This document shows, piece after piece, positions 1,529 to 59,541 of a stretch of 64,000 bases of DNA (within the stretch, counting starts at the first letter, position 1; the number at the start of each line of letters is the position of its first letter). Both the position numbers and the translations under genes were made by a program. This DNA comes from a virus (lineage: Duplodnaviria; Heunggongvirae; Uroviricota; Caudoviricetes): IMG/VR virus record IMGVR_UViG_3300019487_000021, one strand, 5' to 3'. Under the pieces are notes generated by a model, which saw only the letters and a list, made by a program, of their open reading frames with translations, had not been told where the DNA came from and made no database searches.

Positions 1529-1639
1529 TGAAGCAGTGTGCAAAATGCACAGAAACGTCCGTTACCTCGCTTGCCGAATGCTTCAACACTAAATAATGTT
1601 GTATGTTTGAGTGTCACTGCCGAAGACATTCGAGCTTTT

Positions 1640-1710
1640 GCCCCTGCCATCGGATGGAGCCGGGACTTCTAATCTCAGCATTGCAGGTTCGAATCCTGCC
1701 AGGGGTACCA
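1640..1710 (+). ncRNA. tRNA-like RNA with canonical acceptor stem, T-arm and encoded CCA but no foldable anticodon arm
   Basis: Acceptor GCCCCTG/CAGGGGT, T-arm GCAGG-TTCGAAT-CCTGC, discriminator A plus CCA. The 36-nt middle segment forms only the mini-hairpin CCAT-CGG-ATGG and carries a loop-like UUCUAAU. Confidence 0.5.
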
Positions 1711-1728
1711 AATCGTTGTGGCACAAAG

Positions 1729-1760
1729 CAGACCCTAGTAAGGTCTGTTTTCCTTTTTGG
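1729..1760 (+). terminator. rho-independent terminator after the tRNA-like RNA
   Basis: CAGACC-ctagtaa-GGTCTG followed by a T-rich run. Confidence 0.55.
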
Positions 1761-1769
1761 GAGACAAAA

Positions 1770-2129
1770 ATGTCCAAAGCGTGGGGGTGGCATCTGATTC
1801 TTGACTGCGCACATTGCAACGACAATGTGAAGGACGCAGAAGCACTTCGTATGTTCGTCAAAGGTCTTGTTCTAGAAATCGACATGAAAGCGTATGGTGA
1901 ACCGGTTGTTGAACACTTTGCGACTCACGATCCAAACAAGGGCGGTTTTTCCTTAGTTCAACTGATTGAGACGAGTGCTATCACAGGCCACTTTGTCGAT
2001 CTGACAGGCGACGCATACCTTGATGTGTTCTCCTGCAAGGAGATTCCTGTCGAAAAGGCAGTTGCCTATGTCAACAAGTGGTGGAATCCTAAGTCGATTA
2101 AGGTCCATTTCTTGACGAGGCAAGCATGA
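1770..2129 (+). CDS. speD: S-adenosylmethionine decarboxylase proenzyme (small SpeH/SpeD class)
   Basis: GGFSLVQLIETSAITGHFVDLTGDAYLDVFSC matches the AdoMetDC self-processing region (ESH-SIHT-PE...DVFTC); RBS GGGAGA. Confidence 0.7.
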   Translation: MSKAWGWHLILDCAHCNDNVKDAEALRMFVKGLVLEIDMKAYGEPVVEHFATHDPNKGGFSLVQLIETSAITGHFVDLTGDAYLDVFSCKEIPVEKAVAYVNKWWNPKSIKVHFLTRQA

Positions 2130-2171
2130 AATTCATTTGTGTTACGAAGAACTCAAAAGGAAATATGGGTA

Positions 2172-2861
2172 ATGGCTCTAGCCTCTGTGACAATCACAGG
2201 AATTGATGAACGGACCGACTTGCAACAACTCCTGGAATTACAAGACAGGTATCCAAACATTGAATGGGGAGTGTTGTACAGTTTCAATCGACAAGGACAA
2301 CATCCACGCTACCCATCACAAGAGTGGATCAACAAATTACTTGTTCATATGAAGAACAAACGACTTCGTTGTGCCCTTCACATTTGTGGCTCAGCAGTTG
2401 GAGATTTCCTTGAAGGCAATGGCTACATTGTGATGCTTGCTGACAACTTCCCGCGAGTGCAGTTGAATTTCAATATAGGACGATTTGATATAAGCACGAT
2501 CCGGATAGGAATTCAACGCGCAAAAAATCGTCAAGTAATTACGCAGCACAATGAGAAGAACACGGAGCTGTGGAAAGATCTTACGATGTGCAACAATCAC
2601 GCTGTATTGTTTGACCAGTCAGGTGGCTATGGTATTGCACCACGAGAGTGGCCTAAACACTTGAAAGTGATCTCATGTGGTTATGCAGGTGGTCTTGGCC
2701 CCGACAATCTTGCTGAACAGTTGCCGATGATTGACAACGCTTCTGAAGGCAATCGGTATTGGGTTGATATGGAAACAAAAGTAAGGGACAATGACGACTA
2801 CCTTGACCTAAATAAGGTCAGGCAATGTCTACGACTCGTCGATGAGTTTGTAGGAAAGTAG
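2172..2861 (+). CDS. phosphoribosylanthranilate-isomerase (TrpF)-like TIM-barrel protein
   Basis: C-terminal LFDQSGGYGIAPREW...GYAGGLGPDNLAE resembles TrpF LLDS-GG-G-FDW...AGGL-P-NV; RBS AAGGAAA. Confidence 0.45.
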   Translation: MALASVTITGIDERTDLQQLLELQDRYPNIEWGVLYSFNRQGQHPRYPSQEWINKLLVHMKNKRLRCALHICGSAVGDFLEGNGYIVMLADNFPRVQLNFNIGRFDISTIRIGIQRAKNRQVITQHNEKNTELWKDLTMCNNHAVLFDQSGGYGIAPREWPKHLKVISCGYAGGLGPDNLAEQLPMIDNASEGNRYWVDMETKVRDNDDYLDLNKVRQCLRLVDEFVGK

Positions 2862-2873
2862 AGGAGCTTTGAA

Positions 2874-3073
2874 ATGAAATTCATTGTTGAAATCCACGCA
2901 GCAGAAGGTGGTGACGATAGCAAGTTGTTCGTCAAAGATCTCGCACAAGCATATCTCAAACTTTCAACTCGCAAGGGTTGAACAGCTCGCATTGTGCTAG
3001 ATGTGGCCGATGAGATCCGTGTTGAAGTGACGGGTCAAGACCTAGCACAATTGATGAATGAACCTGGCGGTCC
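2874..3073 (+). pseudogene. 5' fragment of a class-I release-factor paralogue (copy 1), with in-frame TGA at 2988-2990
   Basis: MKFIVEIHAAEGGDDSKLFVKDLAQAY aligns to the intact copy at 3618. Same GAGGAG RBS. Reading through the TGA continues as RF-like EVTGQDL...EPGG, then decays and is overlapped antisense by the HNH gene. Confidence 0.5.
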
Positions 3074-3547
3074 TTACTCACTGATCAGTTTCGATAGAGA
3101 TTCAACGAGCGTTCGCAGTTCTTGTAATGATGCATCGTGTTTGATCGCATTACAACGGTGGCAGCAAAGAACTACGTTGAAGGATGTATATCCTTCAGAA
3201 GGAATTAATCGATCGATGCTGGGTGAGCCGCGATGGTCTTTTCGTGTCCCATGCAAATTAAACGGATTGTGGCAATATACACAGCTGCTTTGTTGTTCAT
3301 GGAATTTTGATCGAATTTCTTCTCGTGTCAGTGTAAATGGGATGCTTCTTTTTGAAGAGCGTCGTGAAGCATCACCTACAGCAATAGTGAGCCATCGTTC
3401 CAGCGGTTCTTTGCCTTTGTAGCGACGCTGACTGTTTGAACTCTGACACCTTTTGCAGATGAAGTACAGTCCGTTGGCGTCGCGTCCTTTTGGGAAATCA
3501 GATGCGATTTTGGTGAGATTGCATTGTCTGCAAACTTTTGTAATCAT
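3074..3547 (-). CDS. HNH homing endonuclease
   Basis: CVYCHNPF...HGTRKDHRGSPSIDRLIPSEGYTSFNVVLCCHRCNAIKHD HNH motif; sits between two release-factor 5' copies. Confidence 0.8.
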   Translation of the reverse strand: MITKVCRQCNLTKIASDFPKGRDANGLYFICKRCQSSNSQRRYKGKEPLERWLTIAVGDASRRSSKRSIPFTLTREEIRSKFHEQQSSCVYCHNPFNLHGTRKDHRGSPSIDRLIPSEGYTSFNVVLCCHRCNAIKHDASLQELRTLVESLSKLISE

Positions 3548-3617
3548 GGTGAGTCTCCTCCTTGAGTGTTATTTATGGGGGACACCATTGAAGTTACTCC
3601 CACCGAGGAGAATGAAC

Positions 3618-4313
3618 ATGAAGAAAGTACACTTTGAAATTCACGCTGCCGCTGGCGGCGATGACGCGAAATTGTTTGTGGGCGAACTAGCAAAAGCATA
3701 CGAGCATATGTTCGTGCGTATGGCTTGGAAGTATCGCTGACTGCACACAGCACAATCGGCCGTGGGATACGCGTCGATTGTGTTTGAAGTGACGGGGAAT
3801 GTAGATATGTTGTTTAACGAATGCGGACTTGTCTCCTTGCAACGAGTTCCACCTACAGAGCGAAAAGGAAGAGTACACACATCGACCGTTACGGTTGCTG
3901 TGATTGATCTCGACAAGTATGTCAAACCAGACTACTCGTCAATCAGCACAAACGACCTGAAAGTTGAATGGTACTCCGGTAGTGGTGCCGGTGGGCAGCA
4001 TCGCAACAAGCATCAGAACAGTTGTCGCTTGACGCACCTTCCAAGTGGATGGACTGAGACGGCTCAGTGTCGCAGCCGAGATGCGTCATACAAGCAGGCA
4101 CTTGGACAGATGCAACGTGTGCTACAAAACAAAGGCAACTACCAAGTTGAACGTGCTCAATCCGTTGACCGGAAAGCACAAATGGGTTCTGGAATGCGTG
4201 GTGATAAGATTCGCACGTATCGTTTTCAAGACGATGTTGCAACTGACCACCGCACAGGAAGGAAAGTGAACTTGACAAAGGTAATGAACGGGAACTTCAA
4301 CCTGTTCTGGTAA
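3618..4313 (+). CDS. class-I peptide chain release factor lacking domain 1 (RF1/PrfH-like; PPT codon-recognition motif, GGQ); contains an in-frame TGA at 3738-3740
   Basis: AAGGDDAKLF...RVPPTERKGRVHTSTVTVAV...SGSGAGGQHRNKHQNSCRLTHLPSG aligns to RF1 domains 2-4. ORFs 3453-3740 and 3762-4313 are in the same frame, separated only by TGA, which sits at a normally coding position. RBS GAGGAG. Confidence 0.75.
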
Positions 4314-6182: not shown

Positions 6183-6329
6183 CACTATATGATCAATGGT
6201 AGTCGGCGCTGGAGCGCGGCGGTGTCTTATAAACACTGGAGATCGGCTAGATTGGCTGGAACGGGAGGGATCGTAACCCTCGGCTACTACCAACGAATAT
6301 AGTGATAGAACCATATAATAAGGATATAA

Positions 6330-9275: not shown

Positions 9276-9554
9276 TCACATACAGAATTGTTGCGCATGG
9301 AGTAGAATTACCCTCTATCATGCAAGAACTGTTGTCTTTGTAGAGAACTCTCATATATACTCTTCGAACTGTTGTTGCGTAGTTTTGGGTTACTTCATTT
9401 CCAGAAAACACCTAAAACGTCATTTGACTCAGCGGTCAGATTATAGAAGATTTGTGTGTTGCGTAGTCAAGGGTTACTTCATACTTGATATGGCGGCTCC
9501 CAATGCAGGGAGCCATTTCCCTCAACGAATAAACTCACACGATCGATATGGAAA

Positions 9555-9593
9555 AGCCCTGCTGACGTTTACGACGGCAGGGCTTTTTTTGTT
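9555..9593 (+). terminator. rho-independent terminator upstream of rsr
   Basis: AGCCCTGC...GGCAGGGCT followed by a run of seven T. Confidence 0.6.
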
Positions 9594-9637
9594 TGCAGTA
9601 CCATAATAACTTAACCCTCTCACAAGGAGATGCGAAA

Positions 9638-11370
9638 ATGTCAAAGCTCAACGCTCAGGGCAAGCGCCCAGTAAAGTCTACGTCTAACCATCGTTACGTA
9701 GCACCAGGAGTCCGTCACGTTCCTGTCGAAACTACTCTTGCTATTCCGGTAACGGAAACCGTCAGTGGAACAAAGAACCACTGCAGCACCTGTACGAACT
9801 TGCCGTGTCAACACTACTTGGTAAGGACACGTTCTACCGCACTAGCGACACACTTGTAAAGAATATGAAGACCAAGCTGAATGAAGCCGTTTCCATGGGT
9901 GCGTTTGACTTCGTTGCAAACGTTGCAATCCACGCTCGTGTGCAGATGGGCATCCGCTCACTGCCGATCATGTTGGTTGTCGAATTTGCAAAGATCCTCG
10001 CTGACTATCGTGCTCCGTACACGCAACAGCTGAACGACCTCCGTACACAACTCGCAAAGGCTCGCAGCGTAGCCAAAAAGCTTGAACTTGGTGACGAGAT
10101 TGCTCGTGTTCAGGCAATTGCGGAATCGTTCAACTACGAGAACATGCGCCGTTTGGTGTGTGATGTAATTCAGCGCGCCGACCAGATCACTGACCTCTAC
10201 GCTTATGCCCTTGAAGTGTTCGGTGGTAAGGGCAAGGTGCCGATGGCTGTGAAGCGTGGTGTAGCTGATGCTTTCAACAAGTTCAACGAATATCACTTCG
10301 GCAAGTACGACCGTGCTGGCTCGGTGAAATTCCGTGATGTACTGCGCATTGTTCATCCAACAGCTAAAAACGAGAAGCAAGGCGTGTTGTTTGAAAAGAT
10401 CATGAAGGAAACTCTAGCTACTCCGTACACTTGGGAAACCGAGCTTTCGAAGAATGGCCAGCTTCCGAAGGAAGAACGCCGTTCCGAGGCTCAAGTGTGG
10501 ACAGACTTGCTGGAGTCAGGCAAGCTTGGTTACATGGCTCTTCGTTCGAACGTTCGTAATATCATCAAGGCTGGTGTTGATGATGAAGTGATCGGTGTAT
10601 ACGTTGCAAGTGTGTTGGCTGATCCGAAGCGAGTTGTAGAAAGCAAGCAGTTCCCATTCAGCTTCATCCAGGCCCGCAATGCGATCCAGGAGGTTGGTGG
10701 TAACACGAAGATCCGTAACGCACTGGACAAGGCACTTGAGCTTTCATGCCGCAACATCCCAATGTTGGGCAAGAAGCTTGCTCTGATCATCGACAAGTCG
10801 GGATCGATGGTACAAGGCGTTTCAACGATGCCAGGCTTCACTCCGTTCGACCAGGCTGTAACACTAGCTGCAATGGTCGTAAAGGCACATGCAGATGCTG
10901 ATGACCTTGCCGTAATCGTGTTTGGTTCGGCCGCCGAAACACTAACAGACATCAACCCGAATGACAGCATCAACTCAATCGCGAACCGTATTCGCCAGTC
11001 AAAGGCTGGCGGTGGTACTCAATTCGATGTTGCGTTGCACGCGTTGAACCAGCTGGGATTCAAACCAGATGCCGTGCTTGTTATGACGGACGGTGAAATC
11101 AACAAGCTGTGGATCCAAGGCACGCGCCAGCTGGCTAGCATTCCATCGAGCACGTTGAAAGTTGTTGTCAACTTCCAGGCAGCAAACACAACTCCATTCC
11201 CAATCCGTGAAGGTTGGTATCCGATTGCAGGTTGGTCGGACAAGGTGTTCAAGTGGATTCCTGCGATCCACCAGAAAGTGACAGTTGTGGATGCGCTGTG
11301 TGCTCCATATGCGGGTGCAGAAGCAATGAAGGCTGCAATTCGCGCTGAAGCTGAAGAAACAGAAGAGTAA
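9638..11370 (+). CDS. rsr: Ro60/Rsr orthologue (TROVE plus vWA domains) with an apparent -1 frameshift near 9770-9800
   Basis: KFRDVLRIVHPTAKN matches the Ro60 motif SHKDLLRLSHLKPSS. vWA MIDAS LALIIDKSGSM...GGGTQ. RBS AAGGAG at ATG 9638 (frame 2); the body is in frame 1 from 9688 and has no ATG of its own. Confidence 0.7.
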
Positions 11371-14423: not shown

Positions 14424-15290
14424 ATGAATTACAAACTCTCTTTTGTAGCAATCGTTGCAGCGTTTGCCACAACTGCTGTTTCTGCCGCTGACATCAATTG
14501 TAACGGTGGCTTCAGTGCAAACTGCAACAACAGCAACTTTGGTACAACTAACCAAGGCGGTCAAGGCGGTCAAGGCGGTCAAGGCGGTCAAGGCGGTCAA
14601 GGCGGTGTTGGAGTTGGGGTCGGGATTGGCAAGGGCGGTAACGTCGACAACAATATCGGAAACGGTATTGGCAACTTTTCGTCTTCTGCAAAGATCGAGC
14701 GTGGTGCAGTCGATGTTGACGTCGACAACACCAACGTCAACGTAAATGCCAACACAAACAAGCAAAAGCAAGGTCAGCTGCAAGGTCAGATTCAAGGTCA
14801 AGGACAGAAGCAAAAAGCTGAAGCTAACAACGAAGGCAACACTCAGGAAGTGAACCAGAACTACGAAGCACAAGCTCGTAACCCTGTGGCAACTGCCTAC
14901 GCTGCCCCGCTTGTTGCATCACCTGACACTTGTATGGGTTCAACCAGCGTTGGTGGTCAAGGGATTACGTTTGGTCTGTCAGTCGCTACTACATGGACGG
15001 ACGACAATTGCGTACGCCTGAAAAACAGCCGTGAGCTGCGTGCTTCGAACAAGCATGTTGCTGCTGATGCCCTGCTGTGCATGAACAGCGACGTTCGTGA
15101 AGCCATGAAGGTTGCTGGTACACCGTGCCCACAAGACACTGCTCCGAAGGCTGCAACTGGTCCTGCTCCTGTCAAGACCGTGTCTGATGACACCGTCCGA
15201 GCTGGTGGAACGATCAAGGCTCTGCCGCAAACTGCTCCGGTGAAGAGCCCTGCATTTCAGCCAGCTCTGAGCCGTCCAGGCCGTTCGTAA
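14424..15290 (+). CDS. secreted low-complexity Gly/Gln/Asn-rich protein
   Basis: Signal peptide; QGG repeats. Confidence 0.55.
   Translation: MNYKLSFVAIVAAFATTAVSAADINCNGGFSANCNNSNFGTTNQGGQGGQGGQGGQGGQGGVGVGVGIGKGGNVDNNIGNGIGNFSSSAKIERGAVDVDVDNTNVNVNANTNKQKQGQLQGQIQGQGQKQKAEANNEGNTQEVNQNYEAQARNPVATAYAAPLVASPDTCMGSTSVGGQGITFGLSVATTWTDDNCVRLKNSRELRASNKHVAADALLCMNSDVREAMKVAGTPCPQDTAPKAATGPAPVKTVSDDTVRAGGTIKALPQTAPVKSPAFQPALSRPGRS
14553..14606 (+). repeat. tandem repeat (CAAGGCGGT)x6 encoding QGG repeats
   Basis: Read directly. Confidence 0.85.
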
Positions 15291-17023: not shown

Positions 17024-17326
17024 TTTGTTGATCTTCTTTTGACCCGCGGGTACGCTGATTGTCTTGTTAAAAGATTCAATCATGATTCGTAACCTATTCG
17101 CTACACTTATCCTGTTGTTCAGCACATCTGTGTTAGCTTAACAGGTTGTTCCATCGAGAGGCGTGACTGCATCATTCGATACCGTTGACAATGGGTTCAA
17201 AAATGATGACAATGGATTCAGTGGTAGCAACGACAATGGATTTAGCAGTTCCGACGACAACCGACTATAAGCAATATTAAGTGCGTGCCACTGTAATGTG
17301 CCACGCACTCCATTTGGAGACAAGTA

Positions 17327-17614
17327 ATGAGCACTTTCGCAGTCAAAGCTACTCGCATTCGTTCTATCGAGCCGATCGAAGGCGCCGACATGATTGAACT
17401 TGCTGTTGTCGGTGATTACCGTTCTGTGGTTCGGAAAGGTGATTACAAATCCGGTCAACTTGCTGTCTACATCCCTGAAGGGGCTGTACTACCTGAGTGG
17501 CTTATTGAGCGAATGGGCCTTACTGGCAAACTCGCAGGCAAACAAAAGAATCGTGTCAAGGCTGTTCGTCTTCGTGGTTGCTTGTCACAAGGTCTACTGT
17601 ATCCAGTCGATTGA
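17327..17614 (+). CDS. RNA-ligase N-terminal OB-like domain protein (Rnl5/DraRnl-family N-domain)
   Basis: 95-aa ORF whose stop overlaps the downstream ATG by one base (TGATG). Confidence 0.5.
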   Translation: MSTFAVKATRIRSIEPIEGADMIELAVVGDYRSVVRKGDYKSGQLAVYIPEGAVLPEWLIERMGLTGKLAGKQKNRVKAVRLRGCLSQGLLYPVD

Positions 17615-18492
17615 TGGCAGGACAAACGGCACATGACTATGAAGTTCCAACGGTTGCAACTCTCGACAATCGGGTTCTTGCAACGGAGGACAAAGACGTC
17701 GCCGAAGCTCTCGGCATTATCAAGTACGAGCCACCGATTCCTGCTTACATGAGCGGTGAAGTATATGCTGCTGGTCTCGATGTCACTGTCAAATATGACA
17801 TTGACAACTTCAAGGCTTTCCCGGACGTACTTGTCGATGGGGAACAAGTATCGTTTACGGAAAAACTTCATGGTACATTCTGCGGCATTGGCATTCTGCC
17901 GACTAGCCACTGGGATGACAAACACGTTCGTCGGAAGTTCGTTGTGTTCAGCAAAGGTCTTGGTGGTCAAGGGCATTGTTTCAAAGACACTGAACGTAAC
18001 TGGGGCAACGTATACTTTCGTGCGCTTACGGCTTCTGGCGTTTTCGAAAGACTCGAGACTCTAGTTGATCCTGCAGAAGAGTTCGACGATAAATTCTGGA
18101 ATACGCCAGTGTTTATTCTTGGCGAAGTCTACGGTAAGGGCATTCAGGATCTGGCCTACGGGATGAACGACATCAAGTTTCGAGTGTTTGACATCGCTTA
18201 CGGATATCGGAGTGAACTGAAATATGTCTGCCCGAAGTACATGCGTTTTGTTTGTGAGAATTTTGGCCTTGATTCTGTTCCAGTTCTTTACGAAGGCCCC
18301 TTCAGCAAGGAAGTCATGCTGCAGCATACAAAGGGGTGGGAGACTGTGTCAGGTGGGTCGGCGAATATTCGTGAAGGGATCGTTATTCGACCCACCCAGG
18401 AACGGTACGATCCAACTCTTGGTCGAGTGATCCTGAAAAGTGTAAGCGATGATTACTTGCTGCGCAAGGGCGAGATTACGGAGTACCAATGA
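17614..18492 (+). CDS. ATP-dependent RNA ligase nucleotidyltransferase domain (Rnl2/Rnl5-like)
   Basis: Motif I FTEKLHGT (KxHG). Confidence 0.6.
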   Translation: MAGQTAHDYEVPTVATLDNRVLATEDKDVAEALGIIKYEPPIPAYMSGEVYAAGLDVTVKYDIDNFKAFPDVLVDGEQVSFTEKLHGTFCGIGILPTSHWDDKHVRRKFVVFSKGLGGQGHCFKDTERNWGNVYFRALTASGVFERLETLVDPAEEFDDKFWNTPVFILGEVYGKGIQDLAYGMNDIKFRVFDIAYGYRSELKYVCPKYMRFVCENFGLDSVPVLYEGPFSKEVMLQHTKGWETVSGGSANIREGIVIRPTQERYDPTLGRVILKSVSDDYLLRKGEITEYQ

Positions 18493-34644: not shown

Positions 34645-36153
34645 ATGTTTGGAATGAATTCCATAGTGGGTAAGAAATACTTCAAAGACGCACCGAAGGA
34701 TAGTCTGTTAGTCACATCTCGTTTTTTCACAATTCAAGGCGAGGGAATTTACCGCGGAATGCCGAGCTACTTCGTACGTTTAGCGAAATGCAATCTCGCA
34801 TGTTCATTCTGTTTTGTTGGCAACACAGAAATAGCAATGTCAAATAAACCACGCAAGAAAATCAAAGATGTCGTCGTTGGAGATGTTGTTGTCGCATATG
34901 ACGAAACAACTGGAACATTCGAGCCAGGAACCGTGTCACGTTTGTACCAATCTCAAACAGACGAACTCGTGTATATTCGCACAGCAACGGATCGAATCTA
35001 CTGCACGCCTGAACATCCGTTTTACGTTCGTGGTAAGGGTTGGATTAAAGCAATTGATTTACAACCGAGCGATGTTCTTCTACAAGCAGAATTTATTCAT
35101 AACGGTGAAATGGTCCATACCGTTGAGCGAATAGTGAAAGGCTCGGCTGCTTGGGTGCAACTTGCAGGATCAAAAGATGCTGCCTGTACAGTTTATAATT
35201 TTGAAGTTGATAAGTACCACAGCTATGTAGCGAACGGAAAGGTTGTACACAACTGCGACACGTACTTCGACTCTGGTGAGTATCAAACATACGACCAGAT
35301 CTTTGCCGACTGTGACAAAGAGATCGAAGCCTTCTATGCAAGGCGTAACATGAAAGTTCCAGCGTGGGCAAAGCATTGTGACGGATATTGGGAACCTACA
35401 GGAATAGATAATGCAATTGGCACTCCTCCAGAGGAATGGGTCGCTGAATCGAAACGTAAGGTTGTCCTAGTAATCACAGGCGGTGAACCAACACTTCAAA
35501 CGAACCTCACCGAATTCCTCGAACGAGCAAATAAGATTTTCTTTCACACACAAATCGAGAGTAACGGAACAGATCCTTTAACGTTACCAGATGCAACCAC
35601 GCTTGTGTGTTCACCAAAGTGTCTCGAGAAGAAGCAAGGCATGCAGAAAATCCCCGTGACGGCCTACTTCAGCGGCAACGATGAGCGTGGAGAAGGGATG
35701 TCAGGCCGGCCCTCATACGTTACGTACCACGAAGAGCCACGATACGTTGCCGTTCGATATCTTGAACCAAAGAAAGAGATGCTTGAACGTGCTGACTGTT
35801 TGAAGTTTGTTATGTGTGCTCCTGACGATGACCAAAGCCAGTTCACGCCATACAGTGAAGTTCCTCAGTGGGCACATGACTGGGCTGCAAACACTGGCAA
35901 GCCTGTGTTCGTATCGCCGATGAACATCTACCTGCAAGAGCCACAAAAGGCTAAGAACCTTCGTGCGCAAAAGCAGAGTGGTGAAATCACAATCGAAGAA
36001 CGGTCGACGGTCGACGAAGTCATTTCGTGGTGGGAAAACGATCTCCTTGATATGAAAAAGAATCACCGCAATCATGAATACGCAGCTGAATACTGCATGA
36101 GGCATGGATTTATCTTTCAAGTTCAACTACATTTGTTTGCGAGTCTTGCCTAA
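34645..36153 (+). CDS. queE: 7-carboxy-7-deazaguanine synthase QueE (radical SAM) interrupted by a mini-intein
   Basis: FTIQGEG, CNLACSF[intein]CDTYF, VLVITGGEPTL. Splicing would restore CNLACSFC (CxxxCxxC). Confidence 0.8.
   Translation: MFGMNSIVGKKYFKDAPKDSLLVTSRFFTIQGEGIYRGMPSYFVRLAKCNLACSFCFVGNTEIAMSNKPRKKIKDVVVGDVVVAYDETTGTFEPGTVSRLYQSQTDELVYIRTATDRIYCTPEHPFYVRGKGWIKAIDLQPSDVLLQAEFIHNGEMVHTVERIVKGSAAWVQLAGSKDAACTVYNFEVDKYHSYVANGKVVHNCDTYFDSGEYQTYDQIFADCDKEIEAFYARRNMKVPAWAKHCDGYWEPTGIDNAIGTPPEEWVAESKRKVVLVITGGEPTLQTNLTEFLERANKIFFHTQIESNGTDPLTLPDATTLVCSPKCLEKKQGMQKIPVTAYFSGNDERGEGMSGRPSYVTYHEEPRYVAVRYLEPKKEMLERADCLKFVMCAPDDDQSQFTPYSEVPQWAHDWAANTGKPVFVSPMNIYLQEPQKAKNLRAQKQSGEITIEERSTVDEVISWWENDLLDMKKNHRNHEYAAEYCMRHGFIFQVQLHLFASLA
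34810..35253 (+). mobile_element. mini-intein (148 aa, no endonuclease domain) in QueE
   Basis: Begins with Cys, block B TPEHPF, ends VVHN followed by a +1 Cys. Confidence 0.75.
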
Positions 36154-40711: not shown

Positions 40712-41179
40712 ATGGGCAAGAAATTCGTTTCCACAAAAACTTACAAAGAGATTGCACCAGTTGCTTATCGTCAATGGCGCGACGATGGAAACTGTCAATG
40801 GGTTCATGGTTACGCTCTATCGTTTCACTTTGAATTTGAATGTGATGACCTTGACGCTCGCAACTGGTGCGTCGATTTCGGTGGTTTGCGTCCTCTGAAA
40901 GACTTACTCGAGGAGTGGTTCGATCACAAACTTCTCGTCGCTCAAGATGATCCTCATCGTGAGGCATTACTCAACCTAGACAAGCTAGGAATTGCCCAAG
41001 TAACGGAAGTTGAAAAGACTGGTTGCGAGGGTCTATCTGAGTTCTTGTACAACTACGTCAATGATTGTTTCCTAAAAGATTATGGCTGGAGCAATCGTGT
41101 GTGGTGTTGCAAGGTTGAAGTTCGTGAAAACGAAAAGAACAGTGCAATGCGCGTTGGACATCGTCCAGAGGCAGAATAA
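40712..41179 (+). CDS. queD: 6-carboxy-5,6,7,8-tetrahydropterin synthase (QueD/PTPS family)
   Basis: CQWVHGYALSFHFEFE (Cx3HGH-type zinc and catalytic site). Confidence 0.7.
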   Translation: MGKKFVSTKTYKEIAPVAYRQWRDDGNCQWVHGYALSFHFEFECDDLDARNWCVDFGGLRPLKDLLEEWFDHKLLVAQDDPHREALLNLDKLGIAQVTEVEKTGCEGLSEFLYNYVNDCFLKDYGWSNRVWCCKVEVRENEKNSAMRVGHRPEAE

Positions 41180-51781: not shown

Positions 51782-52244
51782 TGGAGATGTTACGCATTTT
51801 TGAAGCAAGCATGTTTGTCAAGGGCACAAACTGTGCAAATTGTAAGTACGGTGACACAGATCGATCTAAGCCTCTTGCGAAGGAAGAACAGAACGGTCAA
51901 GGCGGTTTAGATCCCACTGGAAAAGATCTTACTCTAGCTGAGAAAGGTGACTTGATTACGCTTCCTGGCAAATCAACAGCTACAAAGAAATTCCCATGCA
52001 CACACTCTGAGATCAAACAGGACGTCACAGAACGTATGTGTTGTGCTTATTGGGATGCTGACGGGTCCATTAGAGCATGGAAGTAAGCAAATAAAACACT
52101 TTCTAGTGGCTGTTAAGACGGTTTTTCGTGTACAACGTCCCTTTTACTGACCGTTAAACAATTCTGTTGATTTTCGAAATGAAACCATATATAGTGTACA
52201 AGTTGTTTTTGAAATCGTGGTTCGATTCCAAGAAACGACACGAT

Positions 52245-52323
52245 GCGATTGTAGCTCAGCGCCAGAGCGCCCCGCCTTCGCCGGAGGGGAGGCCGTGTGG
52301 TTTAAGTCCCGCCAATCGCTCCA
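52245..52323 (+). ncRNA. tRNA-like RNA: perfect tRNA 5' half and acceptor 3' strand plus CCA, but no canonical T-arm
   Basis: GCGATTG-TA-GCTC-AGCGCCA-GAGC, then CCCCGCC-TTCG-CCGGAGGGG helix, then CAATCGC-T-CCA. Upstream at 52214-52232 is a T-loop-like GGTTCGATTCC. Confidence 0.45.
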
Positions 52324-52328
52324 ATTTT

Positions 52329-52378
52329 GCTGCTTCGGTTTCGAAGCAGCCTACGGTGGAACAGGTGCGCCTGTTCCC
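52329..52378 (+). promoter_or_regulatory. two perfect hairpins immediately 3' of the tRNA-like RNA
   Basis: GCTGCTTCG-gtt-CGAAGCAGC and GGAACAGG-tgcg-CCTGTTCC. Confidence 0.6.
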
Positions 52379-54804: not shown

Positions 54805-54879
54805 GCTTCGTAAACTTTGACGGTGAAGCCCACTCCTGTAAAGTGGCGGAAGTAGGTTCGAATCCTACACGGAGCTCCA
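54805..54879 (+). tRNA. tRNA-Thr (anticodon UGU; C33)
   Basis: GCTTCGT/ACGGAGC, CCACT-CCTGTAA-AGTGG, GTAGG-TTCGAAT-CCTAC, T plus CCA. Confidence 0.6.
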
Positions 54880-54979
54880 AGTTGTTGCGAAGGACACTAC
54901 GGTTACTTCATTCACTTTGCGTAATGGCTGGAGGCGGAAGCCTCCGTTTCCGTATCCGACTTTTAACTCAACTTTGATT

Positions 54980-55057
54980 GGGGCATTAGCTCAGCTTTGG
55001 GAGAGCGCTACGTTTGCACCGTAGAGGTCGTCGGTTCGATCCCGACATGCTCCACCA
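54980..55057 (+). tRNA. tRNA-Ala (anticodon UGC)
   Basis: GGGGCAT/ATGCTCC, D GCTC..GAGC, CTACG-TTTGCAC-CGTAG, GTCGG-TTCGATC-CCGAC, A plus CCA. Confidence 0.8.
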
Positions 55058-58744: not shown

Positions 58745-59541
58745 ATGCAGAACGTTGCCGATACACTTACCTCCAAGTACACTTGGAACAAGTTTACTTT
58801 TGATGCCACTCCAGGAACGCCGTTGTGGCGGTTCCGGTATCTGATCTCATGCATCATCGTGGGAGGTAACAATGAAGCTGACACTCTTCGGTGTGATAAA
58901 GAACTGTTTACGCGCTATCCGACTGTGGAGGCGCTTGCCGCAGCAAAATTTCGAGACCTCGCTGACCTCCTTGAAAAGTACGATCTCCAATATGCGGGAA
59001 ATAAAGCCAAGCATATTATTGACACCAGCAGCAAGATCGCTGTACTGGGCGATGTTCCGGACAACCGCGATGCTTTGGAGTGTCTTCCCGGTGTTGTCGT
59101 CACGTTGCTTCTGTCATTCTGGCTACTTGTTTCGGCCAAGACGAGTTTGCTGTGGATATTCACGTCCGTCGCATTGCTAAGCGGATTGGCCTCGTTGACG
59201 AGGATGCTACTGATCGCGCGATTGAAAAAGCAGTGCGCGCAGCTGTACAACCAGATCAATACGGACATTTCAGTAGGTCGTTCGTCGACTTCGGACAAAC
59301 GATCTGTGGCTTCCGCCCCAAATGCGGATCATGTTCGTTGACCCAAACTTGCAAATCGGTGACAGTGTCAACTCGTGACCGATTTGCGCTAACAACTGAC
59401 GCTAAGGCTGGCGCCTATTCGATAGGACAGTACATGATCACCGTTGCAGATGGTTATGCCAAATGCAATTGTATGGCAGGCAAACATGGTCGCAACTGCC
59501 GCCATGTGAAACAAATCGTAACAGGAGAACAGACATGCTGA
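58745..59541 (+). CDS. nth: endonuclease III (HhH-GPD DNA glycosylase with 4Fe-4S cluster) with an apparent -1 frameshift near 59095
   Basis: Frame 2 gives ...DVPDNRDALECLPGV. Frame 1 continues CRHVASVILATCFGQDEFAVDIHVRRIAKRIGL...CGFRPKCGSCSLTQTC. Confidence 0.6.

What the first reader, a model, noticed from the sequence alone, without database searches (positions are those of the whole stretch)
9638..11370. Phage-encoded Ro60/Rsr orthologue (TROVE plus vWA), split by a -1 frame change
Ro60 binds misfolded and Y RNAs, and in bacteria it sits in RNA-repair operons with RtcB and tRNA-like Y RNAs. Its presence here fits the surrounding RNA-repair content: three RNA ligases, a CCA-adding enzyme, a tRNA island, and two tRNA-like RNAs without an anticodon arm at 1640 and 52245. 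The gene starts at a strong RBS/ATG (9638) in frame 2, but the conserved body is in frame 1 and has no start of its own. The N-terminal piece (LNAQG...RYVAPGV) resembles the Ro60 N-terminus, so this is a frameshift around 9770-9800 and not two genes.
Basis: partly seen in the sequence, partly recalled or inferred. Interest (0 to 1): 0.8.

Follow-up and report, generated by a model that had tools for sequence, protein, structure and literature searches.

The report
Phage Ro60 gene, assembly-specific frame break

Summary
The gene is real. Window 9638-11370 encodes a 577-aa Ro60/Rsr-type protein with a TROVE domain (83 bits), a vWA domain and an intact MIDAS motif. The model's 13 best PDB matches are all Ro60.

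The two-frame split is also real in this sequence, but it lies at 9740, not 9770-9800. It is the loss of one G (CTT GGC TAT to CTT GC TAT). Four other assemblies of the same phage were read here (99.9-100% identical DNA). All carry the G and encode the uninterrupted protein. There is no slippery site, and all relatives are single-frame. This is therefore not recoding.

It is one of three TTGG-to-TTG single-base losses in this contig. Each breaks a gene that is intact elsewhere. A consensus error is most likely; a recent inactivating mutation is less likely.

The likely Y-RNA partners are not the tRNA-like elements at 1640 and 52245. A covariance model built only from distant phages finds exactly three modules in the window: 9370-9434, 9454-9540 and 54880-54973. 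The same module occurs 100 times in 47 phage TROVE loci, always on the TROVE strand, with strong covariation.

The closest precedents are bacterial and phage YrlA/YrlB and Thermus phage phiLo Ro60 with Yrl1/Yrl2. This is a new member of a known kind.

The parts
9332..9361 (+). Sigma-70-like promoter (TTGTCT, 18 nt, TATACT) in front of the two Y-like RNA modules
   Evidence: The consensus scan finds it. The TTGAC...CATATATAC block is conserved in relatives L001, L005 and L007 while the flanks diverge. Function is inferred.
9370..9434 (+). Y-RNA-like module M1. A 5'/3' closing helix (UGUUG/CAGCG) is followed by an internal loop with UUGCGUAG, helix P1, conserved GUUACUUCA, a short loop, and a 3' strand with CGUC-AUUUGACU. 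It has no tRNA-like domain.
   Evidence: Covariance model R1 was built only from distant phages. It scores 41.7 bits, E 5.6e-9. The MFE fold reproduces the helices. The same module is present in relatives L001, L005 and L007.
9454..9540 (+). Y-RNA-like module M2. Closing helix GUGUG/CACAC, UUGCGUAG, P1, GUUACUUCA, a G+C hairpin insert, and a 3' strand with CGAA-UAAACU.
   Evidence: R1 scores 41.9 bits, E 5.1e-9. The closing helix changes in a compensatory way in relatives: UGUUG/CAGCA in L001 and UGUUG/CGACA in L005.
9550..9592 (+). Intrinsic-terminator-like hairpin plus a run of 7 T, ending the Y-like RNA unit about 45 nt before the Ro60 start
   Evidence: The hairpin appears in the RNAalifold consensus, where the pairs are kept through sequence differences among relatives, and in the MFE fold. 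The simple terminator scan missed it because of its long loop.
9624..9629 (+). Shine-Dalgarno sequence AAGGAG of the Ro60 gene
   Evidence: Read directly from the sequence. It is conserved with the ATG in four relatives.
9638..9740 (+). Ro60 gene, 5' segment in frame 2: residues 1-34 and the first base of the Gly35 codon
   Evidence: The translation MSKLNAQGKRPVKSTSNHRYVAPGVRHVPVETTL equals residues 1-34 of P0121 and aligns with P0002-P0007.
9740..9741 (+). Site of the missing G. The window reads CTT G-C TAT; sister assemblies read CTT GGC TAT.
   Evidence: There is a single 1-nt gap in the alignment with relatives. It is the only difference from L022 and L023 over 10.8 and 8.1 kb, and L020 and L021 also carry the G.
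9741..11370 (+). Ro60 gene, 3' segment in frame 1 from codon Tyr36 (9742) to the TAA stop (11368-11370): TROVE HEAT-repeat ring and C-terminal vWA domain with MIDAS residues
   Evidence: Pfam TROVE and VWA_2 hits. The segment is identical to residues 36-577 of P0121. The AlphaFold model has pLDDT 85 and pTM 0.84, and its top 13 PDB matches are all Ro60. D386, S388, S390, T461 and D485 are invariant in 26 homologues.
54880..54973 (+). Y-RNA-like module M3 in the tRNA island. Closing helix AGUUG/CAACU, UUGCGAAG, P1, GUUACUUCA, a G+C hairpin insert, and GAC-UUUUAACU. It lies between a weak tRNA-like element (54805-54876) and tRNA-Ala (54980-55057).
   Evidence: R1 scores 37.8 bits, E 6.6e-8. The sequence was read, and the neighbouring elements come.

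Best explanation
Window 9638-11370 is a single gene of a large phage. It encodes a 577-aa Ro60/Rsr-type protein: a ring of HEAT-like repeats (TROVE) closed by a vWA domain with a complete MIDAS site.

In this contig the gene is interrupted because one G of the Gly35 codon (GGC) is missing at 9740, which moves the reading frame from 2 to 1. This is not a recoding signal. The same phage assembled from other samples has the G and an uninterrupted gene. The loss is most probably a consensus or assembly error (about 0.8). It is one of three TTGG-to-TTG single-base losses in the contig, each breaking a gene that is intact elsewhere. Less probably (about 0.2) it is a very recent inactivating mutation. 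If the break were real, the only products would be a 73-aa peptide and, at best, an N-terminally truncated protein lacking a conserved, structured segment.

Proposed function (inferred). The intact protein binds phage-encoded Y-RNA-like RNAs. Two tandem modules (9370-9434, 9454-9540) are transcribed from their own promoter immediately upstream of the gene, and a third (54880-54973) sits in the tRNA island. Each module is a 5'/3' closing helix, an asymmetric internal loop carrying U(U/G)GCG(U/A)AG, a second helix, and the conserved GUUACUUCA. This is the stem-bulge-stem layout with a CGAA-like motif that defines Ro-binding modules.

Two precedents guide the rest: the bacterial Rsr-Y RNA-PNPase complex, and Thermus phage phiLo Ro60-Yrl-PNPase. 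By analogy, the RNP would dock onto a host 3'-5' exoribonuclease or another effector. It would change the decay or quality control of structured RNAs during infection, alongside the phage's tRNAs, RNA ligases and CCA-adding-type enzyme.

Shown here: gene identity, fold class, the nature of the break, and the existence, structure and TROVE linkage of the RNA modules. Inferred: RNA binding, the effector, and the biological role.
For: Gene identity:
- TROVE scores 83 bits and VWA_2 52 bits.
- 428 homologues were found, and the close ones are single-frame proteins of 527-569 aa starting MSKLN.
- The model has pLDDT 85.2 and pTM 0.84. Its 13 best PDB matches are all Ro60, from Xenopus, human, Deinococcus Rsr and Thermus phage (E 4e-16 to 6e-11, TM-score normalised to the target 0.55-0.70).
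- The MIDAS residues are invariant.

The break:
- A 1-nt gap lies at 9740 in the alignment with relatives.
- P0121 (577 aa) equals the repaired translation. Five contigs carry it; the four read here come from a JGI, an ENA and two Logan assemblies.
- The window differs from L022 and L023 only by that G over 10.8 and 8.1 kb.
- About 57 kb of the window could be compared with the ENA contig. The differences are three single-G losses (9740, 17613, 59096), all TTGG to TTG, plus one SNP and one 9-bp repeat-number change.
- TTGG and CCAA contexts hold only 12% of GG/CC dinucleotides.

RNA partners:
- Model R1 was built from 13 modules of distant phages. It finds exactly three hits in 64 kb on both strands (E 5e-9, 6e-9, 7e-8; the next best is E 0.27).
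- In 47 IMG/VR TROVE loci (365 kb) it finds 100 hits at E<=0.01, all on the TROVE strand and none on the other. By my reading of that table, 34 of the 47 loci have at least one hit, mostly within 1.5 kb upstream of the gene.
- Covariation: 95.9% of cells are paired, against 41-53% when partners are slid, and all 13 pairs show compensatory changes in 91 distinct sequences (seed alignment).
- Many family members carry a T arm, stem-loop and D arm insert, which is the published YrlA topology (PMC4201824; bioRxiv 10.1101/312249).
- Precedent for two Y-like RNAs upstream of a phage Ro60 that bind it and host PNPase: PMC12135203.
Against: - No read-level data are available, so error and real mutation cannot be separated with certainty.
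- Pattern scans of the viral and metagenome collections found no further copy of either allele.
- All three broken genes are repair-type genes (Ro60, RNA ligase, HhH-GPD glycosylase). That could hint at selection rather than error.
- The three window modules lack the tRNA-like domain that defines YrlA. Their loop motif is GCGUAG (M1, M2) or GCGAAG (M3), not the published GNCGAAN0-1G in strict form.
- R1 does not detect the experimentally validated Yrl1/Yrl2 region of phage phiLo. The link to a proven Ro-binding RNA therefore rests on architecture and position, not on sequence homology.
- No binding, expression or effector data exist for this phage.
- The R1 seed modules were picked with a descriptor that required pairing, which inflates the pairing. 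The alignment is fitted to the model.
Confidence: 0.8

Rival explanations
1. The single-G loss is real in the sampled phage population. Under this reading the Ro60 gene is a fresh pseudogene or is expressed only as fragments, together with the RNA ligase and the HhH-GPD glycosylase, each of which has lost a G in the same way.
For: The deleted allele is what the deposited contig carries, and its gene caller produced the truncated 501-aa product P0001. All three broken genes are nucleic-acid repair genes. Genuine strain variation exists between the assemblies, as SNPs and a 9-bp repeat-number change.
Against: Against the ENA contig there are three frameshifting deletions but only one substitution in about 57 kb. 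That is the signature of indel-type consensus error and not of divergence. All three are in the same tetranucleotide context and on the same strand. No other assembly shares any of them.
Confidence: 0.17
2. The gene uses a programmed -1 ribosomal frameshift, or transcriptional slippage, to make full-length Ro60 from two frames.
For: The frame offset is -1. Frame 2 stays open for a further 39 codons past the switch point, so an overlap window exists.
Against: Homology switches frame at 9740, about 30 nt upstream of that motif. The sequence there (ACU ACU CUU GCU AUU) has no X XXY YYZ heptamer and no homopolymer run. Every relative, from 100% to 40% identity, encodes the protein in one frame. 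A shift at A-AAG would replace conserved residues 35-46 (GYSGNGNRQWNK) with unrelated sequence.
Confidence: 0.01
3. There are two separate genes: a small upstream ORF (9638-9859) and a Ro60 gene that starts at GTG 9805 or ATG 9865.
For: The source's gene caller started the protein at ATG 9865 (P0001, 501 aa).
Against: There is no Shine-Dalgarno sequence before either start. The frame-1 sequence upstream of the GTG (YSGNGNRQWNKEPLQHLYELA) is conserved, with nearly invariant residues S37, N41, Q43, K46, L52, Y53 and E54. It is confidently structured in the model (residues 34-58). Residues 1-34 in frame 2 match the relatives' N-termini.
Confidence: 0.02
4. The RNA partners of the phage Ro60 are the free-standing tRNA-like RNAs at 1640 and 52245, rather than the modules at 9370-9540 and 54880.
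For: Both resemble tRNA and encode CCA. YrlA RNAs carry a tRNA-like domain (PMC4201824). The three window modules lack such a domain, so a tRNA mimic supplied in trans is conceivable.
Against: Neither element has the closing helix and internal-loop module. R1 gives no hit there even at E<=5 with filters off. Their topology is a normal, unpermuted cloverleaf, not the T arm, stem-loop, D arm order of YrlA. They lie 8 kb and 42 kb from the gene. No association with TROVE genes was tested or seen.
Confidence: 0.07
5. The conserved structured region 9364-9592 is a cis-acting leader (an attenuator or riboswitch ending in a terminator) that controls Ro60 expression, rather than a set of trans-acting Y-like RNAs.
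For: The layout is promoter, about 225 nt of structured RNA, terminator, then the gene after 45 nt. No separate promoter for the gene is evident.
Against: The same module occurs far from any TROVE gene, inside tRNA arrays (M3 at 54880; L009, L012, L014, L017, L019), and downstream of TROVE genes (L047, L054, L055, L074). In L005 and L007 another gene separates it from the Ro60 gene. Modules come in arrays of about 2 to 8 units, each self-contained.
Confidence: 0.08

Closest known systems
Thermus phage phiLo Ro60 (phiRo60; PDB 9KOP, 9L5Y) with Yrl1 and Yrl2 (Hu et al. 2025, PMC12135203)
   Same: It is a phage-encoded TROVE plus vWA ring protein and the best sequence match in the PDB (E 2e-19). 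It is also a full-length structural match. Two Y-like RNAs are encoded in the non-coding region directly upstream of the gene. Each is a 5'/3' stem flanking an internal loop with a CGAA-type motif.
   Different: Aligned identity is only about 20%. The phiLo upstream region is not detected by model R1, so the RNAs are not demonstrably homologous. Binding to Ro60 and to host PNPase is shown for phiLo and is untested here. The present phage has a third module in its tRNA island.
Bacterial and phage YrlA/YrlB Y RNAs next to rsr (Chen et al. 2014, PMC4201824; YrlA structure, bioRxiv 10.1101/312249)
   Same: The RNAs are encoded within a few hundred nucleotides of the Ro60 gene on the same strand. 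Each has a terminal helix plus a conserved loop motif resembling GNCGAAN0-1G. Many members of the module family found here carry the permuted tRNA-like domain (T arm, stem-loop, D arm) that defines YrlA. More than one Y RNA per locus is usual.
   Different: The three modules in this window have no tRNA-like domain, which makes them YrlB-like. The loop motif is GCGUAG in M1 and M2. The family also has a strongly conserved GUUACUUCA element, which I could not compare with the published models because their alignments were not available. Arrays reach about 8 tandem units in some phages.
Deinococcus radiodurans Rsr, Y RNA and PNPase (the RYPER complex) and Xenopus or human Ro60 with Y RNA or misfolded RNA (PDB 2NVO, 1YVP, 2I91)
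   Same: The predicted fold is the same (TM-score normalised to the target 0.55-0.70), as are the domain order and the MIDAS site. The mechanism proposed here is borrowed from this system.
   Different: Aligned identity is 14-17%. The effector is unknown here. The window does not contain the rtcB/rtcA operon context typical of enterobacterial rsr. Instead the gene sits among T4 Rnl1-like and Rnl-type ligases, a CCA-adding-type enzyme and tRNAs.
Programmed -1 frameshift genes (for example dnaX, IS element transposases, phage tail chaperones G/GT)
   Same: The only shared feature is two overlapping frames with a -1 offset.
   Different: There is no slippery heptamer and no conservation of the two-frame layout. 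The intact one-frame allele exists in the same phage.

Membership tests
Ro60 / Rsr (TROVE2-type RNA-binding ring proteins) | TROVE domain (Pfam PF05731) | tested here: met
   E 3.4e-23, 83 bits against the curated cut-off of 23. PHROG 850 'RNA-binding protein' at E 3.8e-36.
Ro60 / Rsr (TROVE2-type RNA-binding ring proteins) | C-terminal von Willebrand A domain with MIDAS residues (DxSxS ... T ... D) | tested here: met
   VWA_2 scores 52.3 bits against a cut-off of 27. D386-K-S388-G-S390, T461 and D485 are invariant in 26 homologues.
Ro60 / Rsr (TROVE2-type RNA-binding ring proteins) | Closed ring of alpha-helical repeats capped by the vWA domain | tested here: met
   This rests on a prediction only. 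The AlphaFold2 model has pLDDT 85.2 and pTM 0.84. Foldseek ranks 1-13 are all Ro60 structures aligned over their full length. I did not inspect the ring geometry itself.
Ro60 / Rsr (TROVE2-type RNA-binding ring proteins) | Uninterrupted reading frame | tested here: not met
   In this window one G is missing at 9740. The frame is intact in the four other assemblies of the same phage read here (P0121).
Ro60 / Rsr (TROVE2-type RNA-binding ring proteins) | Binds Y RNAs or misfolded RNAs | not testable with these tools
   Only candidate partner RNAs could be identified.
Y RNA / YrlA-YrlB family | Encoded close to the Ro60 gene (within about 4 kb) and on the same strand | tested here: met
   M1 and M2 lie 100-270 nt upstream on the same strand. 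Across 47 phage TROVE loci there are 100 hits, all on the TROVE strand. M3 is 43 kb away and is the exception.
Y RNA / YrlA-YrlB family | 5' and 3' ends form a helix interrupted by a conserved loop or bulge that carries the Ro-binding motif (GNCGAAN0-1G in bacteria) | tested here: inconclusive
   The helix, loop, helix layout is strongly supported by covariation. The motif is U(U/G)GCG(U/A)AG: GCGAAG in M3 and GCGUAG in M1 and M2. This is close to the published consensus but not identical. No Rfam family covers it.
Y RNA / YrlA-YrlB family | YrlA only: a tRNA-like domain in the order T arm, acceptor-like stem-loop, D arm | tested here: not met
   The inserts of M1-M3 are a short loop or a plain G+C hairpin. 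The domain is present in other members of the same module family, for example L067 1358-1488, L072 3203-3334, L030 3280-3411 and CcrColossus L079 1918-2049.
Y RNA / YrlA-YrlB family | Physically bound by the cognate Ro60 | not testable with these tools
   This requires immunoprecipitation or EMSA.
Programmed -1 ribosomal frameshift | Slippery heptamer X XXY YYZ at the point where homology changes frame | tested here: not met
   The sequence at 9731-9745 is ACT ACT CTT GCT ATT.
Programmed -1 ribosomal frameshift | The two-frame arrangement is conserved in relatives | tested here: not met
   All 12 homologues whose sequences were read, and the sister assemblies of the same phage, encode the protein in a single frame.

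The most novel reading that the evidence does not exclude
Phages that carry Ro60 generally encode arrays of minimal and tRNA-like Y RNAs, from 1 to about 8 tandem units. Some of these are embedded in tRNA operons, as at 54880 here, so that they are made and processed together with phage tRNAs. Under this reading the Ro60-Y RNP is a tRNA-centred counter-defence device. It would capture or redirect host exoribonucleases such as PNPase, or decoy tRNA-directed defence nucleases, while the neighbouring Rnl1-type and Rnl-type ligases and the CCA-adding-type enzyme repair cleaved tRNAs. The conserved GUUACUUCA element, which lies outside the known Ro-binding motif, would be the docking site for that unknown effector.
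Probability: 0.15. Interest if true: 0.7.

Novelty: new member of a known kind. Interest (0 to 1): 0.4.

Why it matters
For annotation: the gene should be recorded as one intact 577-aa Ro60 homologue with a probable single-base error, not as a frameshifted or recoded gene. The contig should be treated as carrying context-specific single-base losses, with two further genes broken in the same way.

For biology: phage Ro60 proteins are known but little studied, and only one has been characterised biochemically. This work gives a covariation-supported, searchable definition of the RNA module that accompanies TROVE genes in many uncultured phages and in the cultured Caulobacter phage CcrColossus. 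The module is absent from Rfam. The work also shows that such modules occur in tandem arrays and inside tRNA islands. That makes the question of which RNAs phage Ro60 proteins bind, and which effectors they recruit, directly testable.

Tried and rejected
- Megablast of the region against GenBank phages found no match.
- A look-up of the truncated gene call P0001 in the contig index found nothing on record. The cluster look-up instead revealed the intact sister protein P0121.
- Exact-pattern scans for the break site, accepting either allele, found 0 hits in viral contigs and 0 in metagenome contigs. No independent copy of the deleted allele could be found.
- Rfam at gathering and at permissive thresholds, over the whole window and over 9300-9640, gave only tRNAs and terminator-like noise. 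No Y RNA family matched.
- The supplementary alignments of the YrlA paper are not held, and the Annual Review on bacterial Ro60 is not held. I could therefore not compare the published YrlA models directly.
- Alignment A5 (mixed module subgroups) had a misaligned 3' end. A6 contained a truncated row that I entered by mistake. Neither was used, and the model was built from A7.
- R1 was run against the phiLo locus to tie the family to experimentally validated Yrl RNAs. There was no significant hit, and I saw no similarity by eye.
- The simple terminator scan found nothing at 9550-9592 because it limits the loop to 8 nt. Folding shows the hairpin.
Full report
**1. What is in the sequence**

The ORF list and a three-frame translation show two overlapping reading frames.
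- One ORF in frame 2 starts at ATG 9638, nine bases after AAGGAG (9624-9629), and runs to a stop at 9857-9859.
- A long ORF in frame 1 is open from 9688 and ends at TAA 11368-11370.
- The first possible starts in the frame-1 ORF are GTG 9805 and ATG 9865. Neither has a ribosome-binding site.

The frame-1 product hits Pfam TROVE (E 3.4e-23, 83 bits, cut-off 23) and VWA_2 (52 bits, cut-off 27). It also hits PHROG 850, annotated 'RNA-binding protein'.

**2. Where the frames join**

I searched with a conceptual fusion and found 428 homologues.
- The closest (P0002-P0007, 57-74% identical) are single-frame proteins of 527-569 aa. They begin MSKLN..G.R...Y.AP.V..VP.E and continue ..G.S.NGN.QWNKEPLQHLYEL.VSTLLGKDTFY.
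- The window's frame 2 supplies MSKLNAQGKRPVKSTSNHRYVAPGVRHVPVETTL.
- Frame 1 supplies YSGNGNRQWNKEPLQHLYELAVSTLLGKDTFY.

I aligned the DNA of four relatives with the window. There is exactly one single-base gap, in a Gly codon. Relatives read GGN, and the window reads CTT G-C TAT at 9737-9744.

**3. What the break is**

The source's own gene call (P0001, 501 aa, starting at ATG 9865) shares its 90% cluster with one other protein, P0121.
- P0121 is 577 aa and is identical to the two-frame translation of the window with one Gly restored (...VPVETTLGYSGNGNRQW...).
- Five contigs carry it. The four read here come from independent assemblies: JGI 3300019458, ENA ERZ27251177 (154,123 bp), and Logan SRR7811943 and SRR7811987. 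The longest contig on record is 351,809 bp.

The window is 99.9-100% identical to these contigs. L022 and L023 differ from it over 10.8 and 8.1 kb by that single G and nothing else.

I extended the comparison to about 57 kb of the window. The differences from the ENA contig are:
- three single-G losses, at 9740, 17613 and 59096;
- one substitution, at 59077;
- a copy-number change in a 9-bp repeat at 14553.

All three losses are TTGG to TTG on the + strand. Each breaks a gene that is intact elsewhere: Ro60, a 388-aa PF09414 RNA ligase, and a 265-aa HhH-GPD glycosylase. TTGG and CCAA contexts account for only 12% of GG/CC dinucleotides in the compared sequence.

Three frameshifting indels against one substitution, all in one sequence context, is what a systematic consensus error looks like. 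It is not what divergence looks like. I therefore rate an assembly or sequencing artefact at about 0.8 and a recent real mutation at about 0.2. Without reads I cannot settle it. Scans of the viral and metagenome collections for either allele returned nothing.

**4. Why it is not recoding and not two genes**

- The sequence at the switch (ACT ACT CTT GCT ATT) has no slippery heptamer and no homopolymer run.
- All 12 homologues whose sequences were read, and the sister assemblies, are single-frame.
- The same phage exists with the one-frame allele.
- The A-AAG motif at 9772-9775 lies downstream of where homology changes frame. A slip there would replace conserved residues.
- A start at GTG 9805 or ATG 9865 would delete residues that are nearly invariant in 26 homologues: S37, N41, Q43, K46, L52, Y53 and E54.
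- Those residues form a confidently predicted beta-hairpin and helix (residues 34-58).

**5. The protein**

With the 26-sequence alignment, AlphaFold2 gives pLDDT 85.2 and pTM 0.84. Only residues 1-28, a short loop and the last few residues are disordered.

The 13 best Foldseek matches in the PDB are all Ro60 structures, aligned over their full length. They include Xenopus and human Ro60, with and without RNA, Deinococcus Rsr, and Thermus phage phiLo Ro60 (E 4e-16 to 6e-11).

By sequence the best PDB match is the phiLo protein (9KOP and 9L5Y, E 2e-19). Rsr (2NVO) is weak. The MIDAS residues D386, S388, S390, T461 and D485 are invariant. This is a Ro60-type protein in every feature that can be tested computationally.

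**6. The RNA partners**

Rfam finds no Y RNA in the window.

- 52245-52320 scores 39 bits on the tRNA model. It has a 7-bp acceptor stem, D and T arms and an encoded CCA. Its anticodon arm is a 4-bp stem with a 12-nt loop.
- 1640-1707 scores 25 bits, below the gathering score. It has an anticodon loop CUUCUAA and a degenerate D arm.
- Both are normal, unpermuted cloverleaves without any terminal Ro-binding stem.

The 360-nt non-coding stretch just upstream of the gene turned out to be conserved in relatives, even where another gene separates it from the Ro60 gene. In order, it contains:
- a promoter-like TTGTCT-18-TATACT;
- two similar units, each with UUGCGUAG ... GGGUUACUUCA;
- a terminator hairpin.

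The motif TTGCGTAG-N5-6-RGTTACTTCA occurs in 12 IMG/VR loci. In three of them it sits just upstream of a TROVE gene that is only 30-44% identical to this one.

In 47 further IMG/VR TROVE loci, a relaxed form of the motif occurs 29 times on the TROVE strand and once on the other.

Comparing instances gave this structure: 5' closing helix (5 bp, plus one or two more), loop U(U/G)GCG(U/A)AG, helix P1 (7-8 bp), (G/A)(U/A)UACUUC, variable insert, P1', CGNN plus UUUGACU or UGUUCC, closing helix'.

Many instances have an insert made of a T arm (GGUUCGAnUCC), a stem-loop and a D arm. This is the permuted tRNA-like domain published for YrlA (PMC4201824; the sequence of the crystallised domain is in bioRxiv 10.1101/312249).

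**7. Statistics for the RNA module**

I built covariance model R1 from 13 modules taken only from distant phages. None came from the window or its close relatives.
- With filters off, R1 finds exactly three hits in the 64-kb window on both strands: 9454-9540 (41.9 bits, E 5e-9), 9370-9434 (41.7 bits, E 6e-9) and 54880-54973 (37.8 bits, E 7e-8). The next hit has E 0.27.
- In the 47 TROVE loci it finds 100 hits at E<=0.01, all on the TROVE strand. By my reading of that table, 34 loci are covered and arrays reach about 8 units. Most hits lie within 1.5 kb upstream of the gene, and some lie just downstream.
- On the alignment of those hits, 95.9% of cells pair, against 41-53% when partners are slid. 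All 13 pairs show compensatory changes across 91 distinct sequences.

Two caveats apply. The seed was chosen with a pairing filter, and the large alignment is fitted to the model. The slid-partner control and the strand asymmetry do not depend on either.

The cultured Caulobacter phage CcrColossus has 7-8 such modules in tandem directly upstream of its TROVE gene. One of them overlaps a feature annotated tRNA-Gln.

R1 does not detect the validated Yrl1/Yrl2 region of phage phiLo. The link to a biochemically proven phage Y RNA is therefore by layout only.

**8. How it most likely works**

Shown here:
- one Ro60-type gene;
- three Y-like modules with a conserved helix, loop, helix core;
- tight, strand-specific linkage of this module to TROVE genes in many phages.

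Inferred:
- The protein binds these RNAs through the loop and closing helix, as Xenopus Ro60 binds the bulged helix of Y RNA.
- M1 and M2 are transcribed from the promoter at 9332-9361. The Ro60 gene is either read through the terminator or co-transcribed with them.
- M3 is made with the tRNA cluster and released by tRNA-processing enzymes.

By analogy with Rsr-Y RNA-PNPase and with phiLo Ro60-Yrl-PNPase (PMC12135203), the RNP would engage a host exoribonuclease or another effector. It would alter the turnover of structured RNAs during infection.

The neighbourhood fits an RNA-maintenance theme but proves nothing about mechanism. It contains 11 tRNA genes, a T4 Rnl1-like ligase, a second RNA ligase, a PolyA_pol-head nucleotidyltransferase and a CYTH protein.

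**9. Comparison with what is known, and novelty**

Ro60 homologues and adjacent Y RNAs in phages have been reported in two papers read here. One is Chen et al. 2014, covering 22 phages. The other is Hu et al. 2025, with structure and biochemistry for phiLo.

The gene is a new member of that kind, and the frame break is not a biological feature.

Three things may be new in detail:
- the explicit, covariation-supported module with the GUUACUUCA element;
- its occurrence as arrays and inside tRNA islands;
- the fact that this phage's three copies lack the tRNA-like domain.

Whether these points are already contained in the published YrlA models could not be checked, because the supplementary alignments are not held.

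**10. Verdict**

Interest is moderate (0.4), mainly for the RNA-module result and as an annotation correction.

Noticed in passing
window 17613 (gene about 17319-18492, +): A second single-G loss (ATTGGATGG to ATTGATGG) splits a 388-aa RNA ligase (PF09414 plus PHA02142) into two frames. The gene is intact in L020 and L021.
   Followed up: partly
window 59096 (gene about 58745-59541, +): A third single-G loss (GTGTTGGTCG to GTGTTGTCG) truncates an HhH-GPD glycosylase to 200 aa; it is 265 aa in L075-L077. All three losses in the contig are TTGG to TTG on the + strand. That suggests a context-specific sequencing error, or possibly an effect of DNA modification on base calling.
   Followed up: partly
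window 14553-14600 (inside ORF 14424-15290, +): A 9-bp tandem repeat (CAAGGCGGT)n varies in copy number between assemblies of the same phage. The window has one more copy than L020 and two more than L021, an in-frame change of Gln-Gly-Gly units.
   Followed up: no
window 52245-52320 (+), with flanks 52214-52244 and 52325-52350: This is a tRNA-like gene that ARAGORN does not call (Rfam tRNA 39 bits). It has a perfect 7-bp acceptor stem, D and T arms and an encoded CCA. The anticodon arm is replaced by CCCC-12 nt-GGGG. A hairpin containing GGTTCGATTCC precedes it, and a terminator-like hairpin follows it. Its function is unknown.
   Followed up: partly
window 1640-1707 (+): A weak tRNA-like element (25 bits, below the Rfam gathering score) with anticodon loop CUUCUAA, a degenerate D arm and an encoded CCA. 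It overlaps the start of a mechanical ORF (1611-2129).
   Followed up: partly
window 54805-54876 (+): Another tRNA-like element (Rfam 35 bits) that ARAGORN does not call. It abuts Y-like module M3. In several other phages (L009, L012, L014) the module likewise directly follows a tRNA-like 3' end, which suggests co-processing.
   Followed up: no
window about 2874-4313 (+), with an antisense ORF at 3074-3547: Three separate gene calls carry peptide-chain release factor domains (PCRF and RF-1; 35, 40 and 168 aa in L020 and L021). A 157-aa ORF on the opposite strand lies between them. This looks like a fragmented or interrupted phage release-factor gene, perhaps through an intron or homing-endonuclease insertion, or through recoding.
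   Followed up: no
window 34645-36153 (+) and 40712-41179 (+): The first is a radical-SAM-like protein carrying an intein (Intein_splicing, PT-HINT). The second is a PTPS/QueD-like protein. Together they hint at a 7-deazaguanine-type pathway, which may be relevant to the G-specific sequence errors.
   Followed up: no
L079 (Caulobacter phage CcrColossus, JX100810.1) 1182-2373: Seven to eight tandem Y-like modules lie upstream of the TROVE gene gp139. The annotated 'tRNA-Gln' (locus 1592-1659) falls inside one module (R1 hit 1589-1751). It is probably the tRNA-like domain of a YrlA-type RNA and not a tRNA.
   Followed up: partly
L014 (IMGVR_UViG_3300050158_000039), - strand 1598-3416: Seven module hits are interleaved with tRNAs in a 183-kb phage contig, with no TROVE gene inside the fetched 10 kb. 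Whether the genome has a TROVE gene elsewhere is unknown.
   Followed up: no
window 6198-6292 (+): ARAGORN calls a 95-nt tRNA-Ile (anticodon tat). This is unusually long, and the Rfam tRNA model does not report it. It could be an intron-containing or spurious tRNA.
   Followed up: no
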